DNA from: Candidatus Avispirillum sp.
GTDB lineage: Bacteria; Bacillota; Clostridia; Oscillospirales; CAG-272
Direction: 5' to 3'
DNA length: 64,000 nucleotides
Assembly: GCA_045631345.1 (NCBI GenBank)
Contig: JAZQUP010000021.1
Span: forward strand, 39,207 to 103,206
The position numbers and the translations under genes were made by a program. Position 1 is the first letter of the stretch; each line of letters begins with the position of its first letter. The notes under the pieces are model-generated. The model had not been told where the DNA came from and searched no databases. It saw nothing but the letters and a program-made list of their open reading frames with translations. This document shows, in pieces, positions 7,053 through 55,567 of this stretch.

Positions 7053-7787
7053 ATGGAAACACAATATATTAAAACATATTCTAACGCTCTTCAGCGTGAT
7101 ATGGAATGCAAATTCTATGGTCACGGCGGCAAGCCTGTTCTTTTCATTCCTTGTCAGGATGGTCGCTTCTTTGACTTTGAAAATTTTAAGATGACAGAAT
7201 ATTGGGGCCCTTATATTGAGGCAGGACTTGTAACAATCCTTGCAATTGATACAATTGATAAGGAAACTTATTCCGATAACTACACTCCCGCTTATGACCG
7301 CATCCGCCGTCACGAAGCGTGGGTTAGCTATATTATAAATGAAGCAATTCCTATGCTCAGAGAGCGCACAGGAAGAGGAGATGTTGTAACATTCGGTTGC
7401 AGTCTTGGCGCAACACATGCTCTCAATCTTTTCCTCCGCTTCCCCGACACAGTTCGTGGAACACTGGCTCTCAGCGGTATCTTTGATTCCAACTATGGCT
7501 TTGGCAGTTATATGGACGAGCTTGTTTATGCAAACTCTCCCGTTCATTATATGGATAATATGGTTGCAGACCATCCTTATATTGAAAAATATAACAGCGG
7601 CAAGGGTATCGTTTGCGTTGGTACAGGTGCATGGGAAATCCCCGATTCAACACTTCGCCTGCGTGACATCTTCAATTCCAAGGGAATCAATATCTGGGTT
7701 GATGTTTGGGGCAACGATGTTGCTCACGACTGGGATTGGTGGTATAAGCAGGTTGAATACTTCATTCCTAAACTTCTGGAGGACTAA
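7053..7787 (+). CDS. Alpha/beta hydrolase (esterase family)
   Basis: YGHGGKP, GCSLGA, HDWDWW. Confidence 0.85.
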   Translation: METQYIKTYSNALQRDMECKFYGHGGKPVLFIPCQDGRFFDFENFKMTEYWGPYIEAGLVTILAIDTIDKETYSDNYTPAYDRIRRHEAWVSYIINEAIPMLRERTGRGDVVTFGCSLGATHALNLFLRFPDTVRGTLALSGIFDSNYGFGSYMDELVYANSPVHYMDNMVADHPYIEKYNSGKGIVCVGTGAWEIPDSTLRLRDIFNSKGINIWVDVWGNDVAHDWDWWYKQVEYFIPKLLED

Positions 7788-45646: not shown

Positions 45647-46942
45647 TTATGCTTGTAGGTTCTTTTTGAGCAAAAGAAGGTCTTTTGCGTTAACTATGCC
45701 GTTATTGTCCATATCTACTGCGGATATGTTAATTTCACCAATAGTCAATATCTGAGCCAGATATTTTTTAACAAGAAGAAGATCAAGTGAGTTCACTTCT
45801 TCATCACCGTCAGCATCACCGGGGATGATAACAGGAGTTGTGTTAAGCTGAGGGTATGCATAGTCGGAATCTGAGTCAATTTTCCAAACATTTTCAAAAT
45901 CAAAGCCAACAAATGTGGATTGCTGAGCTAATTCTTCGGCAGTGCATTTAATTGCTGTGTCGTTGCCTTCTGAAATACCCTTGGAGACATTATCAATATA
46001 ATAGCAGTTTAACATTTGAATTCTATAGCCGTAACCAGCTGCGATTCCACATTTGTAACCCCATTGGTTGGATACTATATTGCCTGTATTATAACAGTTT
46101 TTAATATCAAGATTGTCTGCTCCTCCGACAATGCCTCCGATACGTGTCATAGTAGGAGTGTTAGAATAAAGATTTCCTGCAGTATAGCAGTCTGATATGG
46201 TTGCAGAATAGCAAAATCCTGCAATACCACCCAATCCGGAGGAGTCACCGGCAGGGGCTTTTATATTAACAAAGCTATAGCATTTTTCTATAAGAGATTT
46301 TGAAGTGGGGTCTTCACCTTGGGCAGGTTCACCGCCGTCAAAATTTCCAACTATTCCACCTGCGCAAACTCCACCATAGCCTTCGGCTGATCCCAGGATC
46401 CTGCCGGTACTGTAGCAGTTTGTTATAGTGCTTTTTAATGCTCCGCCTGTAATACCGCCTATGTAAACACTTTTGGATGACGAAGCAGCGCCGAGAAAGT
46501 CAATATCAATCATTCCCAGATTTTTGATTGTTCCGCTTATATAACCGAAAAGACCTACATACAAATTGTTGCTTGATGAAGAAGCATTGATGTAAAGATT
46601 TTTTATGGTGTGGTAGTTTCCGTCAAAGGAGCCTGTGAATGGATCGGATTTTTTTCCTATAGGTTCAAATCCTGCGCCTTCGTTGTAGAAATCTCCACCC
46701 TCAGCGAAATCGGTGTAGTTAAATTCAATGTCAAACAAAAGTTTGAAATGAGAGCTGAGATAGTTTCGCACATTGTTGAGCTGTTCCTTGTTTACGATGA
46801 GATAAGGGTCATCCTCTGTGCCGCTGCCGCCTGCGAATCCCTGAGAGTTCTTTGTTGTTGCATAAGCTGTTATTGGCTGAGTGATTGTGAATATCATGGC
46901 TAGAGCAACCAATAATGCCAGCATCTTTTTTGCTTTTTTCAT
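45647..46942 (-). CDS. Secreted GLUG-motif protein with C-terminal dockerin
   Basis: Signal peptide; GGSGTEDDPYLI, FTGSFDGN, VGLFG, GGIxG repeats; GDADGDEEVNSLD / DMDNNGIVNAKD. Confidence 0.85.
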   Translation of the reverse strand: MKKAKKMLALLVALAMIFTITQPITAYATTKNSQGFAGGSGTEDDPYLIVNKEQLNNVRNYLSSHFKLLFDIEFNYTDFAEGGDFYNEGAGFEPIGKKSDPFTGSFDGNYHTIKNLYINASSSSNNLYVGLFGYISGTIKNLGMIDIDFLGAASSSKSVYIGGITGGALKSTITNCYSTGRILGSAEGYGGVCAGGIVGNFDGGEPAQGEDPTSKSLIEKCYSFVNIKAPAGDSSGLGGIAGFCYSATISDCYTAGNLYSNTPTMTRIGGIVGGADNLDIKNCYNTGNIVSNQWGYKCGIAAGYGYRIQMLNCYYIDNVSKGISEGNDTAIKCTAEELAQQSTFVGFDFENVWKIDSDSDYAYPQLNTTPVIIPGDADGDEEVNSLDLLLVKKYLAQILTIGEINISAVDMDNNGIVNAKDLLLLKKNLQA

Positions 46943-47142
46943 TTTAAAGCTCCTTTGATGGATTCAAACAAGAATTATAAACATTTATTTACAGCAACTT
47001 CAAAATGCATGTTTTCTTGCTCTAACACATTGAGTATAGCATAAATTTTTATAGTGAACAAGATAATATAGAGAAAATTAAAGTGTTATGAGTTAGCTGT
47101 AATAATTAGTTTTACTCTGTTCAGAAACCAGCTTTGATATTT

Positions 47143-47307
47143 GTGTACAAAAGACGCAAAACAGAACAAAAAAGGCTCCCGAACCAAGGTTCAGGAGTCT
47201 CAAAAGCGTTCCAAAATACACGATTTAGGGGGATTACTTAGAAGCCTCGATCATAGCAACTGCAACAGCAACTGTCATACTTAGCCTGTGGGGTGTTACC
47301 AGCGCCG
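47143..47307 (-). repeat. GGGtGRT 3'-end copy R1 with type-A terminator
   Basis: TTACTTAGAAGCCTCGATCATAGCAACTGCAACAGCAACTGTCATAC..GTTACCAGCGCCG at 47234-47307; left part homologous to 48801-48895. Confidence 0.9.
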
Positions 47308-47550
47308 CCCACGCGTGAAACGCGCGGTTATTTCGAAGAAAAGCCCTCTCTAAACCTCTATTTTATCAAGTTTTAATGTGTTTTACTCGTGCCTTTGTGG
47401 ACACAATGTGGACGAATTTTCGTCCACATTTATTATACATATTTTTATGCCCATCTGCAACAAATACGGTAATCATTTTGTACATAGGTGGGGAGAATTT
47501 TGAAATTCATAATGTTATCATAAACGCATCAAACCAAAGGAGGATGTTTT

Positions 47551-48081
47551 ATGATAACACAGCCGGATAAGAAAATTTCCGGAGACAGTAAAAAGTGGAA
47601 AAACGTTGTGTCAGTTTTTCTGCCAAATACTTGCAAACCTTGTGAGGAAAAGCACGGTACGATTTTTCCTTACGATGCAATATTTAAAGGATGACATCAC
47701 AGGTGCCAATGCTATCTTGCAAGAATGAGAACAAAGAAAGTAGGAACCGCCACACAGGACGGACTCAGCGGTGTTGATGCTTTTGTTATGTACACAGGCC
47801 AATTGCCTGCCAACTATGTGACAAAAGATGAAGCAAAAATGCTCGGGTGGAAATCCAAAAAAGGAAATCTTGACAAGGTTTTACCACAAAAATGCATCGG
47901 CGGCGATATTTTTTACAACGGACAAGGAAAATTACCGCAAAAAGATGATAGAATATGGTATGAAGCGGATATTGACTATATTTCAGGCTACAGAAACGAT
48001 TCAAGAATACTTTATTCTAACGACGGTCTTATCTTCGTCACTTACGATCACTATAAAACATTTTATGAAATAACAAATTGA
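47551..48081 (+). pseudogene. MuF-like (TCxxC..HG..HxxCxC) plus barnase-type RNase fusion interrupted by in-frame TGA
   Basis: AGGAGG RBS and ATG 47551, TGA 47692-47694, same frame continues into GGDIF..WYEADIDY..RILYSNDG..DHY RNase (ORF 47725-48081). Confidence 0.75.
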
Positions 48082-48089
48082 GGAGAATT

Positions 48090-48407
48090 ATGGATACATA
48101 CAATTACAAAGTACATTTTCCAAAAGTAAATACATTTTCTGATCTGCACGGAATATTAAAGGAAAGCCTTGATCTTCCATTTTATTACGGAGCAAATCTT
48201 GATGCGCTTTATGATTGCCTATGTGAGCTTGCCCGCGATAAAGTAACTATTGAGATTACGGGATACGAGAATGTCAGAGCCTTTTATCCCGAATACAGCG
48301 AGAAACTATTAACAGTTTTTTATCACTTCAAGCACTATGTTGAGGAATGCGCTCACCTTGTTACAATCAGCGTTGAAGAAAATGGAGAGATCACATTTAT
48401 TGAGTAA
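48090..48407 (+). CDS. Barstar-family RNase inhibitor 1
   Basis: LH..LK..L.LP.YYGANLDALYDCL; RBS GAGGAG. Confidence 0.9.
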   Translation: MDTYNYKVHFPKVNTFSDLHGILKESLDLPFYYGANLDALYDCLCELARDKVTIEITGYENVRAFYPEYSEKLLTVFYHFKHYVEECAHLVTISVEENGEITFIE

Positions 48408-48432
48408 GCCTATAATTTAAGGCGAGGACATA

Positions 48433-48750
48433 ATGGAAACATACAATTACAAAGTACATTTTACAAAAATAAACTCTTTTTCAGAACTGCACGGAATACT
48501 GAAAGAAAGCCTTAATCTTCCCTATTACTATGGAGAAAACCTTGATGCACTATACGATTGTCTCTGTGAAATTGGATGTAGTAAGGTTACTATTGATATA
48601 ACAGGATTTGAAAATGTGCGTTCGTTTTATCCCGAATACAGTGAAAAGCTGCTTTCTGTTTTTTGCGATTTTAAGCATTATGCAGAAGAATATTTACACC
48701 TTAAAACCATTAGTGTAGAAGAAAACGGAAAGATTACTTATATTGAATAA
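48433..48750 (+). CDS. Barstar-family RNase inhibitor 2
   Basis: Paralogue of previous gene (YYGENLDALYDCL). Confidence 0.9.
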   Translation: METYNYKVHFTKINSFSELHGILKESLNLPYYYGENLDALYDCLCEIGCSKVTIDITGFENVRSFYPEYSEKLLSVFCDFKHYAEEYLHLKTISVEENGKITYIE

Positions 48751-48790
48751 AATGAAAAAGGAGATGCTGTGGTATCTCCTTTTTCATTTT
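48749..48790 (+). terminator. Terminator; palindrome family member
   Basis: AAAATGAAAAAGGAGATGC-TGTG-GTATCTCCTTTTTCATTTT. Confidence 0.8.
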
Positions 48791-48800
48791 TATTATCCAA

Positions 48801-48942
48801 GTGGACAAAAGCAAAAACAAAACAAAAAAGACTCCCGATGTGAGATTCGGGAGTCTTAAAAATCGTTCCAAAATGCCCGATTTCAGGGCATCTTAATTAC
48901 TTAGAAGCCTTGACCCAAGCATACGCAACAGCAACTGTCATA
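48801..48942 (-). repeat. GGGtGRT 3'-end copy R2 with type-A terminator
   Basis: TTACTTAGAAGCCTTGACCCAAGCATACGCAACAGCAACTGTCATA at 48897; hairpin AAGACTCCCGA..TCGGGAGTCTT. Confidence 0.88.
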
Positions 48943-48986
48943 TGGAATGACCTGCGTCACACTTGCCTTTGAAGTTAAGCTAAAAC

Positions 48987-49028
48987 TTACTTGGAAGCTT
49001 CCTCAATAGCTACAGCAACCGCTAACAT
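48987..49028 (-). repeat. Recoded GGGtGRT 3'-end copy R2b (MLAVAVAIEEASK*)
   Basis: Reverse complement ATG TTA GCG GTT GCT GTA GCT ATT GAG GAA GCT TCC AAG TAA, preceded by AGGGAG. Confidence 0.8.
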
Positions 49029-49225
49029 AATTTTCTCCCTGTTTAAAATATTCTTTATTATGACAAAACGTCACCTGTGACCATAGCTTAACATATCTCG
49101 CCTGCGGTATCAACTAAAGCGCGTTTTTTGCCACCGAAAGTTTTTATGTTGATTCGTCATTTTCAAATCAACAATACTGTGCTATAATCAGTATATAAAG
49201 TTAATTTCTTGTGCGAGGTAATGAT

Positions 49226-51313
49226 ATGACAAGAGCAGAAGCCGCAAAAAAAGCCCGCGAGCTTGTTTCAAAAATGACAGTAGAGGAAAAGGCCGACCAG
49301 CTTCTTTACTGCAGCGATCCCATCGAGAGGCTTGGAATTAACGGCTACAACTGGTGGAACGAAGCCCTGCACGGTGTAGCAAGAGCAGGCGTTGCAACGG
49401 TATTTCCCCAGGCAATAGGCCTTGCCGCATCCTTTGACCCCGAGTTCGTGGGGGAGGTTGCCGACGTTATCTCCACCGAGGCGCGCGCCAAGTACAACTG
49501 CCACGTTGAGGAAAAGGATTTCGGCATATACAAGGGCCTTACCATGTGGTCGCCCAACATCAATATTTTCCGCGATCCCCGTTGGGGCCGCGGTCAGGAG
49601 ACCTACGGAGAGGACCCCTACCTTACGTCTAGCGTTGGATGCGAGTTTGTTCGCGGCCTTCAGGGCGACGGAGAATTTTTAAAGTGCTCTGCCTGCGCAA
49701 AGCACTTGGCCGTTCACAGCGGCCCCGAAAAGCTCAGACACACCTTTAACGCTATCTCCTCACAAAAGGATCTTTTCGAGACCTATCTTCCCGCATTTGA
49801 AAGGCTTGTCAAGGATGCAAAGGTAGAGGGCGTAATGGGCGCCTACAACCGCACAAACGACGAGGCGTGCTGCGCCCACAGCCAGCTTATGGACGACGTG
49901 CTTTTTAAGCAGTGGGGCTTTGAGGGATATTTCGTTTCCGACTGCGGCGCAATATGCAATTTCCATAAGACACATATGATCACCCACGACGGCCCTCACT
50001 CTGCCGCCCTCGCCCTCAGCCACAGATGCAACGTAAACTGCGGCGGCGCATATACCAATATTCTGAAGGCACTTGAGGACGGGCTTGTAACGGAGGAGCT
50101 TATTGACGAAAACCTTGTAAAGGCGCTCACCACAAGAGTTCTTCTCGGCGAATTTGAAGAGGTTCGCCCCTATACGGATATCGAATACGATATCGTTGAC
50201 TGCGAGGAGCACCGCCTTAAAAATCTTGAGGCGGCCCGCCGCTCTCTCGTTCTTCTCAAAAACGACGGTACCCTGCCCCTCAGTCGCAAGGAGCTGAAAA
50301 GGGTTGCCGTCATCGGCCCCAACGCCATGTCCCACTCTGCCCTCTCCGGCAACTACTGCGGACTTGCATCCGAGTACGTCACCGTCACCGACGGTATCAG
50401 AAGAGCCCTGCCCGATGCGCGCATCTACTACGCTATGGGCACACGCCTTTTCGATGATGATACGGAGCACGCAGGCGGCATCAGCACAGCGGCAGAGGCG
50501 GCAAAGCGCGCAGACGTAGCTGTAGTTTGCCTCGGCCTTGACCCCAACCACGAGGGGGAGGAGCTGACCGTCTCAAACGACTACTGCGACGGCGGCGACA
50601 GAACTACAGTTGCCCTTCCCGCAATACAGAAAAAGCTTCTTTCTGCGGTATGCGATGCCTGCGATAAGGTAATTGCCGTAGTTATGCAGGGAAGCTGCTG
50701 TGATATCGGAGAGGAGCTTCTTGGAAGAGTAAGCGCCCTCGTCCACGCCTGGTACCCCGGCGCACAGGGAGGAAATGCCATAGCCGAGCTTATCCTCGGA
50801 GACTTCTCCCCCAGCGGCCGCCTGCCCGTCACCTTCTATCGCGAGGACGACGAGATCAAGGATATCTGCGACTACGATATGGAGGGCCGCACCTACCGAT
50901 TTATCAATACCGAGCCCCTCTTCCCCTTCGGCTACGGACTCGGCTATTCCGAGTTTAAATATACGGATGCTACTCTTCTCTCAAGGGACAGCGAGGGTAT
51001 TACCCTCTCGGTCAAGGTAACGAATACGGGTAAAATGGATGCAAGAGAGATAACGCAGGTGTACGCCTCCTTTACCGATAGCAGGACCCGTACTCCCAAC
51101 TTCCAGCTTTGCGCCATTTCATCAAATATGATCAGATCAGGAGAGAGTGCAACACTTACTCTCAAGGTCTCCGACTATTGGATCAAGGCGGTTAACGAAA
51201 AGGGCGAGCGTATCACCCCAAACGGTAGCCTCTCCCTCTTTATCGGCGGCCACCAGCCCGACAAAAAAAGCACCCACCTTTGCGGCGAGTGCCTTGAGAT
51301 TAAAATGAATTGA
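49226..51313 (+). CDS. GH3 beta-xylosidase/beta-glucosidase
   Basis: WWNEALHG, RDPRWGRGQETYGEDP, CAKH, SDCGA, WYPG, FPFGYGL, C-terminal Fn3-like domain; GC-rich. Confidence 0.95.
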   Translation: MTRAEAAKKARELVSKMTVEEKADQLLYCSDPIERLGINGYNWWNEALHGVARAGVATVFPQAIGLAASFDPEFVGEVADVISTEARAKYNCHVEEKDFGIYKGLTMWSPNINIFRDPRWGRGQETYGEDPYLTSSVGCEFVRGLQGDGEFLKCSACAKHLAVHSGPEKLRHTFNAISSQKDLFETYLPAFERLVKDAKVEGVMGAYNRTNDEACCAHSQLMDDVLFKQWGFEGYFVSDCGAICNFHKTHMITHDGPHSAALALSHRCNVNCGGAYTNILKALEDGLVTEELIDENLVKALTTRVLLGEFEEVRPYTDIEYDIVDCEEHRLKNLEAARRSLVLLKNDGTLPLSRKELKRVAVIGPNAMSHSALSGNYCGLASEYVTVTDGIRRALPDARIYYAMGTRLFDDDTEHAGGISTAAEAAKRADVAVVCLGLDPNHEGEELTVSNDYCDGGDRTTVALPAIQKKLLSAVCDACDKVIAVVMQGSCCDIGEELLGRVSALVHAWYPGAQGGNAIAELILGDFSPSGRLPVTFYREDDEIKDICDYDMEGRTYRFINTEPLFPFGYGLGYSEFKYTDATLLSRDSEGITLSVKVTNTGKMDAREITQVYASFTDSRTRTPNFQLCAISSNMIRSGESATLTLKVSDYWIKAVNEKGERITPNGSLSLFIGGHQPDKKSTHLCGECLEIKMN

Positions 51314-51321
51314 TTAAAGTA

Positions 51322-51347
51322 AAAGGAGATGCCATGGCATCTCCTTT
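51322..51347 (+). terminator. Perfect palindrome; family member
   Basis: AAAGGAGATGCCATGGCATCTCCTTT. Confidence 0.8.
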
Positions 51348-51364
51348 CCTTTTTCTAAAAAAAC

Positions 51365-51619
51365 AAAAAACTCCTTGATTTCTCAAGGATTTTTTATTTT
51401 GTAATGTTAAATTACTTAGAAGCCTTGACCATAGCAACTGCAACAGCAACTGTCATACGTAGCCTGTGGGTTGTTACCGGCAACCATGAGACACATCATT
51501 TCTTTATCAAAACCGATGGTAAAAACCTAAAAAGTGCCAGAAGCAAATGCTATCAAGGGTATTTTTAATATGAAATTGTGTTAAACACATCTTTTATATG
51601 TGTTCCCAAGCCAATTATA
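51365..51619 (-). repeat. GGGtGRT 3'-end copy R3 (about 255 bp, type-B terminator)
   Basis: Direct repeat of 53633-53889 at offset about 2270. Confidence 0.95.
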
Positions 51620-51627
51620 ATTTCTTT

Positions 51628-53538
51628 TTATTCTACAATAACACGCTCTCCTGTAGCTTTTCCTTCTTTTATCAACTGTCCGTTTTTAAATACCTGCCAG
51701 GTGCTTCCCTTAATGCGAATATCAAAGGATGCGTTACAAACGTTGATTTTTGAAAGAGAAATATCGCCAAATTCTGTAATATTGGGATTAAATGAAAAAG
51801 AATTGAGGCTTTCGGGTTCAATTCCAAAAATCCCCTCAGAAACAATTCTTGCAAAAAGGGCGCTTTCTCCTGAAAGATGACGTTTTCCACCTTCGGGATA
51901 TGCTTCAACGGCGTAAGGTACTCGGTCACAGAGAAGTCGTTTGTTGCAATAGCGAAGAAGCGGCTCTTTCATTACGTCAGCCTTGCCCATTATAAATGCA
52001 CATTTCATTCCGTAAAGAGTGGAACGGTCCCATATAGTATGGCTGGTATTTTCTTCAGATATTTCGCAAGTGAGCATTCCTTCCTCTGTCCAGAGGTGTT
52101 CGGAAAGCATTGCGTTTAATGTATCTTCGGCTCTGTTTTTTATGCCCATGCAAAGAGGTAAGCAGATCCAGGCGCGAAGAGTATCGTATCCCTTTGAATA
52201 CCGATAGGTATCAAAATTGTGAAGTGTAGCGCCGAAATATTTGTCTATTGCTTTACAAAGAGCGTCAGCACGTTGTGTATATATTGCTGCGCTTTTGTTG
52301 TCTCCGAGAGAAAGTGCAAGCTTTGTGGCAAGTCGGAGACCGCCGTAGCAAAGACTGGAGGTTGAAAGATTTGCTTTATTGTCTGTGGGGAATCTTCCTT
52401 CAAGCTCATCGTTTTCGGATAAAATAACTCCGTCCTCAGACTTTTGTTTTTCGCAGTATTCAGCACACCACTGTATTGCCGGATAAAGCTCTTCGGCTAT
52501 GTTTCTGTCGCCAAGAAGCAAGCAGAAAAGTGAAGCTCCGTAAAGATACATTGCGCTGTCACCGCGATCTCCTGCGCCTTCCCATATATCAAGACCTTCA
52601 GCGATGATAGATGAGGGTAGACGATAATAATTATCGGACATAAAGGGTATGTATGCGCGATATGCATTAAGAGATGCCTCTATTGCAGTTTTGTCTCCTG
52701 TCATTGCAAAGTGAGGACCTGCATATTCGATCTGGTCATTACACCATATGGCCGCATAGTATGCATATCCGCCGGGGCTGTGAAATTTACCGGATAAGGT
52801 TTCAAAAATGCTTTCAGCAGCTCTCAACTTTGAAAGTCTGAGCATAACGTCAAGCTCTGGGTGTGAGCTTTTAAGAATAAGTGCCCCATCGCAAAGTGCT
52901 GATATTCTCTCTCTTCTCTTTTCAAGTTCTTTAATATGATCTGGAATATCGCTGATATTTCTTCCAATATCGCAGTAATAATAGATTGCAAACTCTACGC
53001 TCTCTCCCTTTTTGAGGGAAACTTCTTCTTTAAGCGTGTGGTGGATCTTTGCAACGTAAACGCCCTTTGTGCCTCTGCCGTAGGAATATACGGTATCACA
53101 AGGCTTGGAAGCTGATATCGTAACGTCTTCTGTTGCAGTTACAGTAATAGTTTCGAGGCAGAACGCAAGGTCGACAGAGGGGAAAAAACAGCGTTTTGTT
53201 GCAAAGCCGCAGTCGGTGTCGCATTCAATGCTCAAAACCCCGTCAAAGGTGAACTTTCGGGGCTGTTCGGAAACTGCTTTGCGGTTTGCGATAAGATGGG
53301 GGATTTCGCTATCGTCAAAAAGCACGTTATACGTTGCGTGAGTATTATTGGGAATAGTTCTTAGAGTGGGGAAAAAGCAGTGGCGAGAAAGAGCTAGCTC
53401 GCCGTCCTCATTTACTCCGTACGTAACTATGAAATCAGTATAGAGACCGCTCATTTCAATATTGTCAAAATGGCACTGTCCTTCTTTAACGTTCCATGCT
53501 ATATGCTGATCTTCAATATTCCAGATTTTTTCTGTCAT
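51628..53538 (-). CDS. Six-hairpin glycosidase-like protein
   Basis: HSPGG..YYAAIWCNDQ.EY, GAGDRGD, DELEGRFP, EAYPEG..RHLSGES; RBS GGAGG. Confidence 0.7.
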   Translation of the reverse strand: MTEKIWNIEDQHIAWNVKEGQCHFDNIEMSGLYTDFIVTYGVNEDGELALSRHCFFPTLRTIPNNTHATYNVLFDDSEIPHLIANRKAVSEQPRKFTFDGVLSIECDTDCGFATKRCFFPSVDLAFCLETITVTATEDVTISASKPCDTVYSYGRGTKGVYVAKIHHTLKEEVSLKKGESVEFAIYYYCDIGRNISDIPDHIKELEKRRERISALCDGALILKSSHPELDVMLRLSKLRAAESIFETLSGKFHSPGGYAYYAAIWCNDQIEYAGPHFAMTGDKTAIEASLNAYRAYIPFMSDNYYRLPSSIIAEGLDIWEGAGDRGDSAMYLYGASLFCLLLGDRNIAEELYPAIQWCAEYCEKQKSEDGVILSENDELEGRFPTDNKANLSTSSLCYGGLRLATKLALSLGDNKSAAIYTQRADALCKAIDKYFGATLHNFDTYRYSKGYDTLRAWICLPLCMGIKNRAEDTLNAMLSEHLWTEEGMLTCEISEENTSHTIWDRSTLYGMKCAFIMGKADVMKEPLLRYCNKRLLCDRVPYAVEAYPEGGKRHLSGESALFARIVSEGIFGIEPESLNSFSFNPNITEFGDISLSKINVCNASFDIRIKGSTWQVFKNGQLIKEGKATGERVIVE

Positions 53539-53632
53539 TTTAAGTCCTCCGTTTGCTTGCAATTGTAGCTATTAGATACTACCTAAGAAAATTATACCAC
53601 AATATTAGTACTCCCACAATAAAAATACAAGC

Positions 53633-53889
53633 AAAAAACTCCTTGATTGCTCAAGGAGTTTTTGTTGTTTGTAATATTAAATTACTTAGAAGCCTCGACC
53701 ATAGCAACAGCTACTGCAACAGTCATACGTAGCCTGTGGGTTGTTACCAGCAACCATGAGACCCATCAGCTCTTTATCAAAACTGATGGTGAAAACCTAA
53801 AAAGTGCCAGAAGCCAATGCTATCAAGGATATTTTTAATATGAAATTGTGTTAAACACATCTTTTATATGTGTTCCCCGACCCATTATA
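53633..53889 (-). repeat. GGGtGRT 3'-end copy R4 (about 255 bp, type-B terminator)
   Basis: AAAAAACTCCTTGA-TTGC-TCAAGGAGTTTTT, then TTACTTAGAAGCC.. matching 54521-54658. Confidence 0.95.
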
Positions 53890-53985
53890 GATCAACTTTT
53901 ATCAAGAAGTCAACATCTTTTTAACATCTTTTGAGGATGTTTGAGGCATCTTTTAATATCTTTATAATCAAATATGTTTGTAAGT

Positions 53986-54333
53986 TTAAAAGCATTCTTG
54001 ATAGCTTTCCAAAGTTAACTTTCCAAAATAGCTCTCAATATCTCTTTTATCAGTGATATTCTTGTCAAAGTAAAGGCTTTCGATTACAGCAACTTCTATA
54101 AGATTCTTAACTTTTTCGTCGCCATTCTTTAACATATCTTCAACAAATTCAAATATTTCAATTAGAGTTTTCTTGCTGTTAATTTTAGTTGTTTCAACAA
54201 TAAATTTTATAAACTTTGATTCATAAAAAATGTATGGTAAATCTTTATAGTAGTCCTTGTCTAATTCGTAGATTTGCTTTAGCTCAGGAAAACGATTAAC
54301 AAGGATTGTTATTGCCTCATCATAGTTATACAT
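53986..54333 (-). CDS. Small AT-rich helical protein, immunity-protein-like
   Basis: RBS GAGGAG; L..RFPEL..LPY..IFEFVE.ML..GDE.V.N.IEV..IESL pattern. Confidence 0.65.
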   Translation of the reverse strand: MYNYDEAITILVNRFPELKQIYELDKDYYKDLPYIFYESKFIKFIVETTKINSKKTLIEIFEFVEDMLKNGDEKVKNLIEVAVIESLYFDKNITDKRDIESYFGKLTLESYQECF

Positions 54334-54359
54334 AAAACGCTCCTCTAATATTCTTTTTG

Positions 54360-54491
54360 TCACTCATACAACCTACGCATTTTATCAAGGTACTCTTTAA
54401 ACTCTTCCACTTGCGGAGAGGGCGAGAGTATTTTTACTTTATTGCCTAGGCCGCAGAGCCAGCCGTAAAACTGATTGCTGACCTTGATACA
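54360..54491 (-). pseudogene. C-terminal remnant of a WYL-domain regulator
   Basis: Frame IKVSNQFYGWLCGLGNKVKILSPSPQVEEFKEYLDKMRRLYE* with no start codon. Confidence 0.65.
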
Positions 54492-54519
54492 TTATACCAC
54501 AATAAAAATATACGTTCAA
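54491..54519 (-). promoter_or_regulatory. Sigma-A promoter reading into the array
   Basis: Minus strand TTGAAC-17 bp-TATAAT with TG extension. Confidence 0.7.
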
Positions 54520-54520
54520 C

Positions 54521-54552
54521 AAAAAAACTCCTTGATTTATCAAGGAGTTTTT
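54521..54552 (-). terminator. GGGtGRT gene terminator (type B)
   Basis: AAAAAAACTCCTTGA-TTTA-TCAAGGAGTTTTT. Confidence 0.85.
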
Positions 54553-54568
54553 ATTTTGTAATATTAAA

Positions 54569-55567
54569 TTACTTAGAAGCCTCTTCGATAGCAACAGCAA
54601 CAGCAACTGTCATACCAACCATGGGGTTGTTACCAGCGCCGATGAGACCCATCATCTCTACGTGAGCGGGTACGGAGGAAGAACCTGCGAACTGTGCGTC
54701 GCCGTGCATTCTACCCATTGTATCTGTCATACCGTAGGAAGCGGGACCTGCTGCCATGTTATCGGGATGGAGTGTACGACCTGTACCACCACCGGATGCA
54801 ACGGAGAAGTACTTAACGCCGTTTTCGATAGCCCACTTCTTATATGTACCTGCAACGGGGTGCTGGAATCTTGTGGGGTTAGTAGAGTTACCTGTGATGG
54901 AAACGCCTACGTTTTCAAGTCTCATAATAGCAACGCCTTCGGGTACGCTATCAGAACCATAGCACTTAACGTCTGCACGAGGACCATTGGAGTAAGCTGT
55001 TTCCTTAACAACTGTAACTTCCTCTGTTGCGGGGTCAAACTGTGTCTGAACGTATGTAAAGCCGTTGATACGGGAGATGATCATTGCTGCGTCCTTACCG
55101 AGACCGTTGAGGATAACACGGAGGGGCTTTGTTCTAACCTTATTAGCGTTGAGGGCGATCTTGATTGCGCCTTCAGCTGCTGCGAAGGATTCGTGACCTG
55201 CGAGGAAGCAGAAGCATTCTGTTTCTTCGGAAAGAAGCATGGAGCCGAGGTTACCATGGCCGAGACCAACCTTACGGTTTTCAGCAACAGAACCGGGGAT
55301 ACAGAAGGACTGGAGGCCGATACCGATAGCGGCAGCAGCGTCAGCAGCCTTTGTGCAGCCCTTCTTGATTGCGATAGCTGCGCCTACTGTATATGCCCAC
55401 TTTGCATTTTCAAATGCGATAGGCTGTGTTTCTTCTACGATCTTATAGGGGTCGATACCCTTTGCATCACAGATTTCCTTACACTCGTCGATAGAGGAAA
55501 TACCGTATTCAGCGAGAGCGGCAAGAATTTTCGCCTCGCGTCTTTCATAACCTTCAAATTTAGCCAT
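54569..55567 (-). CDS. GGGtGRT protein
   Basis: SGGGTGRTLHPDN, FLAGHESFAAAEGA, GNSTNPTRFQHP. Confidence 0.95.
   Translation of the reverse strand: MAKFEGYERREAKILAALAEYGISSIDECKEICDAKGIDPYKIVEETQPIAFENAKWAYTVGAAIAIKKGCTKAADAAAAIGIGLQSFCIPGSVAENRKVGLGHGNLGSMLLSEETECFCFLAGHESFAAAEGAIKIALNANKVRTKPLRVILNGLGKDAAMIISRINGFTYVQTQFDPATEEVTVVKETAYSNGPRADVKCYGSDSVPEGVAIMRLENVGVSITGNSTNPTRFQHPVAGTYKKWAIENGVKYFSVASGGGTGRTLHPDNMAAGPASYGMTDTMGRMHGDAQFAGSSSVPAHVEMMGLIGAGNNPMVGMTVAVAVAIEEASK

What the first reader, a model, noticed from the sequence alone, without database searches (positions are those of the whole stretch)
47234..54613. All repeat copies preserve the C-terminal reading frame: a set of alternative C-termini
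Seen (minus strand): native MTVAVAVAIEEASK*; 53682 MTVAVAVAMVEASK*; 51412 MTVAVAVAMVKASK*; 48897 MTVAVAYAWVKASK*; 47234 MTVAVAVAMIEASK*; 48987 MLAVAVAIEEASK*. Many differences are synonymous (ACA/ACT, GCT/GCA, GTT/GTA). Upstream of the Met codon, three copies share the same diverged 13-nt segment (AC[G/T]TAGCCTGTGG vs native 12-nt ACCAACCATGGG), a +1 shift, and homology then resumes (GNN..MGL). Inference: the crossover lies near the GTCATAC junction, the distal part was selected to restore the protein, and the shared segment is element-derived rather than random decay.
Basis: partly seen in the sequence, partly recalled or inferred. Interest (0 to 1): 0.7.

Follow-up and report, generated by a model that had tools for sequence, protein, structure and literature searches.

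The report
Scarred island joints behind GGGtGRT gene
The repeats are copies of the end of a conserved gut-bacterial gene that mark the joints between stacked DNA islands, likely left by integrases that insert there; three carry a shared one-base frameshift found in many relatives, so they are likely dead joints rather than spare protein ends.

Summary
All five copies are real, and each Met-to-stop tail is free of indels. They are not a set of alternative C-termini. A tyrosine integrase family lies just downstream of a GGGtGRT 3' end in 78 of 79 loci, and a second family does so in two genomes. The window keeps the arms of both element types but no such integrase: tandem accretion of decayed islands. 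Displaced copies mostly begin at codon V303, about 92 nt before the stop, not at the Met codon. Read from there, copies 53682, 51412 and 47234 are frameshifted. In four copies, 19 of 25 tail differences lie in non-synonymous codons. None of 130 gene ends carries these tails. Only copy 48987 looks like a recoded, selected C-terminus. What remains unexplained is the +1 patch: 28 distinct copies, seven genera, often on host-like flanks, never in the gene and never before an intact integrase. It may lock cargo in place, because excision would frameshift the gene (inferred). The scan noted GGGtGRT islands before on other DNA.

The parts
54569..55567 (-). GGGtGRT gene (332 aa), the target gene
   Evidence: PF14057, E 3e-191
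54569..54661 (-). Native duplicated block, V303 to stop (about 92 nt); predicted helices 300-309 and 313-331
54523..54552 (-). Terminator-like hairpin T1, repeated after copies 53682 and 51412
54363..54506 (-). 3' remnant of the WYL gene that closes the intact type A element of G030
   Evidence: tblastn 75% over 48 aa; 92% nt
53986..54333 (-). Cargo: DUF7674 gene, replaced by 30 other bases in a contig of run X9
53776..53971 (-). Type A right arm, with promoter-like TTGACT-18-TATAAT (53913-53884)
   Evidence: 77% to the arm of the integrase-bearing element of G030
53682..53772 (-). Copy 1 (type A joint); +1 patch at 53727-53739; tail MTVAVAVAMVEASK
51628..53538 (-). Cargo: 636-aa gene, weak glycoside-hydrolase-like hit
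   Evidence: no Pfam hit; TIGR01577 E 4.5e-4, far below cut-off
51506..51619 (-). Truncated type A right arm
   Evidence: 91% to the copy-1 arm
51412..51502 (-). Copy 2 (type A joint); +1 patch at 51457-51469; tail MTVAVAVAMVKASK
49211..51313 (+). Cargo: GH3 beta-glucosidase-like gene, 98% identical to one in the array of G023, in another order
48987..49031 (-). Copy 3: synonymously recoded C-terminus, left part lost; first half of a 90-bp micro-unit
48897..48986 (-). Spacer ending GTCATTCC plus copy 4 (tail MTVAVAYAWVKASK); joint at the Met codon
48800..48896 (-). Type B left arm (hairpin plus TTTTGTCCAC)
   Evidence: aligns with the arm before the 421-aa integrase of G043
47725..48750 (+). 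Cargo: barnase-like RNase and two barstar genes
   Evidence: PF00545, PF01337 twice
47305..47440 (-). Type B right arm (TGTGGAC/GTCCACA repeats)
   Evidence: 87-89% to arms in G023 and G010
47234..47306 (-). Copy 5 (type B joint from G310); +1 patch at 47279-47291; tail MTVAVAVAMIEASK
47140..47233 (-). Second type B left arm

Best explanation
The five repeats are copies of the GGGtGRT gene end that mark the joints between stacked DNA islands, likely left by tyrosine integrases that insert at that gene end, and three of them carry a shared one-base frameshift, so they would not work as alternative protein ends. Shown: one integrase family (type A, 311 aa) lies just after this gene end in relatives; a second (type B, 421 aa) does so in two genomes; the window keeps arms of both types but no such integrase. 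Inferred: each integration gave the gene a replacement end and pushed the old end downstream (type A crossing at V303-E304, type B near G310); the elements then lost their integrases and left one- to three-gene cargo units. This is why most displaced ends in relatives are in frame and differ synonymously: each was once a working C-terminus. Copies 1, 2 and 5 belong to a decayed subclass with one recurrent +1 patch over P315-G318 and later missense changes. The patch likely arose once or a few times in a downstream copy and spread between arrays by recombination, its flanks converted towards the host gene. It can persist only downstream, because at the gene it would replace the last helix. Copies 3 and 4 are a separate gene-free micro-unit whose recoded tail does restore the protein.
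For: Integrase linkage: 78 of 79 type A loci have a GGGtGRT end upstream within 2.2 kb (69 within 300 nt); the one miss is cut by its contig end. PF00589 hits. Type B: intact after the gene in G043 and truncated (92%) after a displaced end in G534; G043 has B then A in tandem. Window arms align with both types. No type A integrase in the own genome (best 26%); the five PF00589 genes lie on other contigs. Joint position: 35 of 53 unpatched distal copies start at V303, and homology ends within a few bases upstream in most gene-copy pairs shown. Selection history: unpatched copies versus their own gene, 32 of 35 tails same length, pN/pS 0.07; patched copies 10 of 16, pN/pS 0.32. Frame from NNP reaches a native-like stop in 46 of 50 scorable unpatched copies and 7 of 27 patched ones. 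Patch: 14 of 400 family genomes plus the own genome, reversed-pattern control 0; 0 of 130 gene ends; 0 of 78 ends before an intact type A integrase; 12 of 28 patched copies precede a type A left-arm hairpin. The replaced residues include invariant M316, V317, G318, V321, A324, V325, A326 in a confident predicted helix. Units are shuffled in other samples and genomes.
Against: The crossover points are inferred from where homology starts; no recombination was observed. A crossover at V303 predicts that the gene-side block follows the integrase, but for 26 pairs with integrases at least 90% identical the block's synonymous identity was only 0.70 (gene body 0.62), while gene-side and distal copies in one locus share 0.80; extra homogenisation must be assumed. 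The host terminator T1 occurs three times in the window, which simple accretion does not give. Most loci were selected by the type A integrase, which biases the V303 count. Type B rests on few loci (2 of 99 further family genomes matched). The origin of the patch is not shown. One of the 130 gene ends (G238) is itself frameshifted near V303, and 7 of 27 patched copies regain the native stop. No relaxase appeared among the 15 common element gene clusters scanned, so the route of transfer is unknown.
Confidence: 0.8

Rival explanations
1. Excision lock: the patch is kept by selection because it makes excision costly. Recombination between the gene and a patched copy at the type A or B point would put a frameshifted tail on GGGtGRT, so the cargo between them is fixed in place. 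This adds a purpose to the best explanation rather than replacing it.
For: The patch lies downstream of both inferred crossovers and over invariant residues; it recurs in seven genera after at least six arm types with a conserved core CC[AG]CAG[AG]; two genomes hold three patched copies around integrase-free cargo (window, G701); GGGtGRT is reported as highly expressed in vivo (PMC11204068, passages).
Against: Neutral inheritance of one old lesion predicts the same distribution. The need for the last helix is untested. Seven of 27 patched copies regain the native stop. The patch is rare (14 of 400).
Confidence: 0.2
2. One reading: the patch is the element-side half of the attachment site of a third recombinase that crosses at the Met codon, so the tails are interchangeable C-termini.
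For: A joint at the Met codon exists in the micro-unit (four examples; in L104 it supplies the end of an intact gene). The patch ends exactly at the same point and resembles the bases before copy 4. Patched tails in relatives keep pN/pS below 1 (0.32).
Against: 0 of 130 gene ends carry the window's tails; 6 of 16 patched tails have indels; one related copy has an in-frame stop (L054); no recombinase tied to the patch was found among 78 scanned neighbours of copies (78 of 160 clusters); homology continues upstream to the A or B joint, often host-like.
Confidence: 0.12
3. The units move mainly by homologous recombination between the 70-90 bp repeats and shared terminators, with integrases only seeding the repeats.
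For: Both copies are host-like and mosaic; T1 is repeated three times; contigs of other samples change neighbours inside T1.
Against: Sharp, recurrent 5' boundaries at V303 and G310 and intact arms point to site-specific events.
Confidence: 0.3
4. Integron-like array in which each copy is a folded single-strand (attC-like) site.
For: One- to three-gene units with no local integrase.
Against: No copy folds better than shuffles (z from -1.2 to +1.4 over 11 strands); the integrases score 45 and 50 bits against an integron cut-off of 265.
Confidence: 0.03

Closest known systems
CIMEs, microCIMEs and tandem accretion at the 3' ends of rpsI, rpmG, fda and tRNA genes in streptococci (PMC5704250 and PMC7563491, passages)
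   Same: Direct repeats holding the target gene's 3' end, integrase-less remnants with retained arms, unrelated tyrosine integrases sharing one target, a gene-free micro-unit.
   Different: Target is GGGtGRT, which I did not find reported as a target; repeats are about 92 bp (type A) against the usual 8-60 bp; the micro-unit is about 90 bp against 130-220 bp; no ICE or IME ancestry shown; a recurrent frameshift patch marks a subclass of joints.
Damaged displaced tRNA/tmRNA fragments at island ends (Islander, PMC4383910, passages: 148 of 3919 islands)
   Same: A recurrent lesion at a fixed place in the displaced gene fragment.
   Different: There a small deletion in an RNA gene fragment; here a 10-nt replacement (+1) in a protein-coding block, upstream and downstream of which homology continues. 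The primary paper (Williams 2003) was not held.
Shufflons and other C-terminus-switching loci (recalled, not from a call)
   Same: Several variant C-terminal segments next to one gene.
   Different: All copies are direct repeats separated by cargo genes, no invertase is present, and no variant tail was seen on a gene.

Membership tests
CIME-type tandem accretion array at a tyrosine-integrase target | [quoted passage not shown] | tested here: met
CIME-type tandem accretion array at a tyrosine-integrase target | A cognate tyrosine integrase uses the same site in relatives | tested here: met
   78 of 79 type A loci; type B in G043 and G534
CIME-type tandem accretion array at a tyrosine-integrase target | Units lack their own integrase but keep att arms | tested here: met
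   the genome is 85% complete, but the array lies on one contig
CIME-type tandem accretion array at a tyrosine-integrase target | Derived from a conjugative or mobilisable element (relaxase) | tested here: inconclusive
   no relaxase among 15 of the 22 commonest gene clusters downstream of type A integrases; rarer genes not scanned
CIME-type tandem accretion array at a tyrosine-integrase target | Excision or cis-mobilisation by the integrase | not testable with these tools
   only assembled contigs were laid
Integron cassette array | Integron integrase IntI | tested here: not met
   45.4 and 50.2 bits against cut-off 265 for TIGR02249
Integron cassette array | attC-like stable single-strand hairpin | tested here: not met
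   z-scores -1.2 to +1.4
Shufflon-like alternative C-termini | Variant segments in inverted orientation with a dedicated invertase | tested here: not met
   all copies on one strand; no recombinase in the array
Shufflon-like alternative C-termini | Variant tails found on the expressed gene | tested here: not met
   0 of 130 gene ends

The most novel reading that the evidence does not exclude
The recurrent +1 patch is a booby-trapped attachment site: a displaced gene end that still recombines but would frameshift a conserved, highly expressed host gene if used for excision. It locks acquired cargo in place and lets patched units enter only at downstream joints, turning an integration hotspot into a one-way gene-capture array.
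Probability: 0.2. Interest if true: 0.68.

Novelty: new member of a known kind. Interest (0 to 1): 0.38.

Why it matters
It names a protein-coding integration hotspot in gut Clostridia used by at least two integrase families, with cargo such as glycoside hydrolases, restriction-modification and abortive-infection-like genes. The type A integrase, with a conserved target across many genera, is a candidate tool for site-specific insertion in gut anaerobes. The open point of real interest is why the same frameshifting patch marks downstream copies in seven genera; if it locks cargo, it would be a DNA-only way of stabilising islands.

Tried and rejected
Rfam: nothing at gathering score. tRNA scan: none. 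attC-like folding: none. Diversity-generating retroelement: changes are not confined to adenines; reverse transcriptase was not searched. Cys-rich +1 peptide as a selected product: stops fall at varied places and some copies stop early. A protein search with a 40-aa patched frame returned 1 candidate, a 118-aa ORF without the gene body, and missed native GGGtGRT proteins, so it is a weak negative. Patch pattern: 0 in viral contigs, 0 of 400 class-level genomes, 5 metagenome contigs, none with gene body upstream. Full-length element for the micro-unit: strict pattern found 0 of 300 other family genomes. Type A integrase in phages: 3 records at 29-33% only; type B in viral contigs: none. Promoter created by the AMV/AMI change in copies 2 and 5: 9-10 of 12 matches, but 22 sites against 15 +/- 4 in shuffles, and a terminator follows. 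GGGtGRT function: no convincing solved relative by sequence or fold. Laid contigs: no run held half the stretch; joints at 85-92% likeness may come from other organisms; the 51463-54624 joint has a 30-nt side and was not trusted. Literature: 'GGGtGRT' gave 13 papers, 11 listed, none on integration by title or abstract start; 'GGGtGRT' plus 'integrase' gave 2 unrelated listings; PMC12884075 has no GGGtGRT in its text or its one held supplement; two searches found nothing relevant. Subscription papers and unseen island databases could list this target. A base-by-base tally of the joint edge was planned but not run.
Full report
Observation. The native gene at 54569-55567 (minus strand) is GGGtGRT (PF14057), behind a NifU-like gene. 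Five downstream copies of its end lie at the stated places and translate as stated. They occur only in this array and far above background. The 13-versus-12-nt segment is as described. Two claims fail. In copies 53682, 51412, 48897 and 47234, 19 of 25 differing bases in the Met-to-stop tail lie in non-synonymous codons, with 25% of sites synonymous; only 48987 is mostly synonymous, 6 of 8. And the frame is kept only for the last 14 codons: read from the start of the duplicated block, three copies shift into a Cys-rich tail ending GF*.

What makes the copies. GGGtGRT was found in 47 of 61 related genomes, several with extra C-terminal pieces downstream. In G030 a 311-aa tyrosine integrase (PF00589) follows the gene, and a near-identical copy of the block lies 10.6 kb on. 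Of 155 relatives of this integrase, the best 79 loci were kept; 78 have a GGGtGRT end upstream, 69 within 300 nt, and the one miss is cut by its contig end. Record titles show these hosts are Clostridia-class assemblies. A second, distant integrase (421 aa) follows the gene in G043, with a type A element behind it, and a 92% identical truncated one follows a displaced end in G534. The window's flanks match both: type A right arms before copies 1 and 2, a type B right arm before copy 5, type B left arms after copies 4 and 5, and a stub of the WYL gene that ends the G030 element. The own genome has no type A integrase and no PF00589 gene on this contig. This is the accretion pattern described for streptococcal CIMEs (PMC5704250, PMC7563491; passages).

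Where the crossover is. Among 80 distinct downstream copies, 42 start at V303, including 35 of 53 without the patch; in most gene-copy pairs homology stops within a few bases upstream. Type B copies start near G310. An inverted repeat GACACATCAT...ATGATGTGTC precedes 67 of 75 type A integrases, and its half resembles ATGATGGGTC, the gene's M305-G307 codons beside the joint, as expected for a binding site (inference). So the main joints lie upstream of the shared segment. Against a simple picture: the gene-side block follows the integrase only weakly (synonymous identity 0.70 versus 0.62 in the gene body for 26 close-integrase pairs), while the two copies in a locus share 0.80. Both copies are host-like, which needs conversion or spread within species.

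Are the tails alternative C-termini? Unpatched copies behave like former gene ends: 32 of 35 tails have the same length as their own gene's, pN/pS 0.07. Patched copies are decaying: 10 of 16, pN/pS 0.32 (kin and shared changes are not independent, and one copy was reclassed by hand as frameshifted). None of 130 distinct gene-end contexts (a few may be repeats or long duplicates) ends in AMVE, AMIE, AMVK, WVK or the patched tail; one, in G238, is frameshifted near V303. The residues that the patch would replace include seven invariant positions in 40 aligned proteins in a predicted helix with pLDDT 84-97. The exception is the 48987+48897 unit: a recoded tail, a short spacer and GTCATTCC before the displaced Met codon. 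It has three relatives, whose inverted repeats co-vary, and in L104 it supplies the end of an intact gene. Its recombinase was not found.

The patch. AACCC-RCAGGYTAAG-TATGAC replaces AACCC-CATGGTTGG-TATGAC. It was found in 14 of 400 family genomes besides the own one, in seven genera in all, with a reversed-pattern control of 0, in 5 metagenome contigs, in 0 of 400 class-level genomes and 0 viral contigs; 28 distinct contexts in all. It follows at least six unrelated arms. In several genomes both flanks are closer to the host's own gene than to over 90% of other gene ends, in others not. It never lies in a gene, never before an intact type A integrase (0 of 78), and 12 of 28 precede a type A left-arm hairpin. 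Seven of 27 regain the native stop through second changes. It does not create a hairpin. A recurrent lesion in displaced fragments has a precedent in tRNA-gene islands (148 of 3919; PMC4383910, passages). I judge one old lesion spread by recombination and confined to downstream joints as most likely. A selected role as an excision lock is possible and testable; GGGtGRT is reported as highly expressed in gut anaerobes (PMC11204068, passages), but its need is untested.

Mobility of the units. The GH3 unit is 98% identical to one in G023, where it follows rather than precedes the barnase-barstar unit. Contigs of other gut samples join 48750 to 53631 and 53963 to 54361, and put the GH3 unit behind a different, in-frame patch allele. 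These are contigs at 85-92% likeness and may come from related species.

Verdict. Real repeats, known mechanism, a target gene and integrase families that I did not find in the searched literature. Earlier scan notes reached the same island reading on other DNA, seen after I had found the integrase. The alternative-C-termini reading is not supported; the recurrent frameshift patch is the unexplained residue.

Noticed in passing
L081:2760-2935 and 66 other type A loci: Conserved inverted repeat GACACATCAT-N16-ATGATGTGTC 23-37 nt before the integrase start (67 of 75); its half matches the target codons M305-G307 and a similar repeat sits in the right arm (window 53850-53875). Possible operator or extra binding site.
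   Followed up: partly
L145-L149, L152 (gene end to integrase): Integrases 97-98% identical sit behind gene ends only 81-94% identical; element identity starts some 20-40 nt after the stop, so both repeats look host-derived.
   Followed up: partly
window 48897-49031; L031:4160-4330; L104:7359-7484; L177:1410-1590: About 90-bp gene-free unit with co-varying inverted repeats GGAATGAC.../...GTCATTCC that recodes the C-terminus; parent element unknown.
   Followed up: partly
window 47250-47278 and 51428-51456 (-): The AMI/AMV change makes ATGACA-17-TGnTATGRT, a promoter-like pair inside the copy; weak against background.
   Followed up: no
L191:6244-6340, 7477-7570; L194:12080-12174; L196:2881-2970: A second recurrent change, GCGTTTCGAA..., in one genus; in three copies it brings the shifted frame back to the native stop.
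   Followed up: no
L076:2533-2626 (G238): A full-length GGGtGRT gene next to a type A integrase is frameshifted by a short duplication at the V303 joint; real scar or assembly error.
   Followed up: no
L230:3-734 (G519); L086, L098, L130: A third, XerD-like recombinase gene often rides inside type A elements; a 51% relative lies on contig C37 of the own genome.
   Followed up: no
L132:16024-16719 and others: A serine resolvase is the commonest gene downstream of type A integrases (40 of 79 loci); WYL regulators occur in 20.
   Followed up: no
window 45647-46942 (-): GLUG-repeat, dockerin-bearing gene just beyond the last arm; may be further cargo with no right joint left.
   Followed up: no
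window 54569-55567 (-): GGGtGRT model (pTM 0.83) has no PDB match at E 0.001; the GGGtGRT loop, 260-301, is low-confidence.
   Followed up: partly
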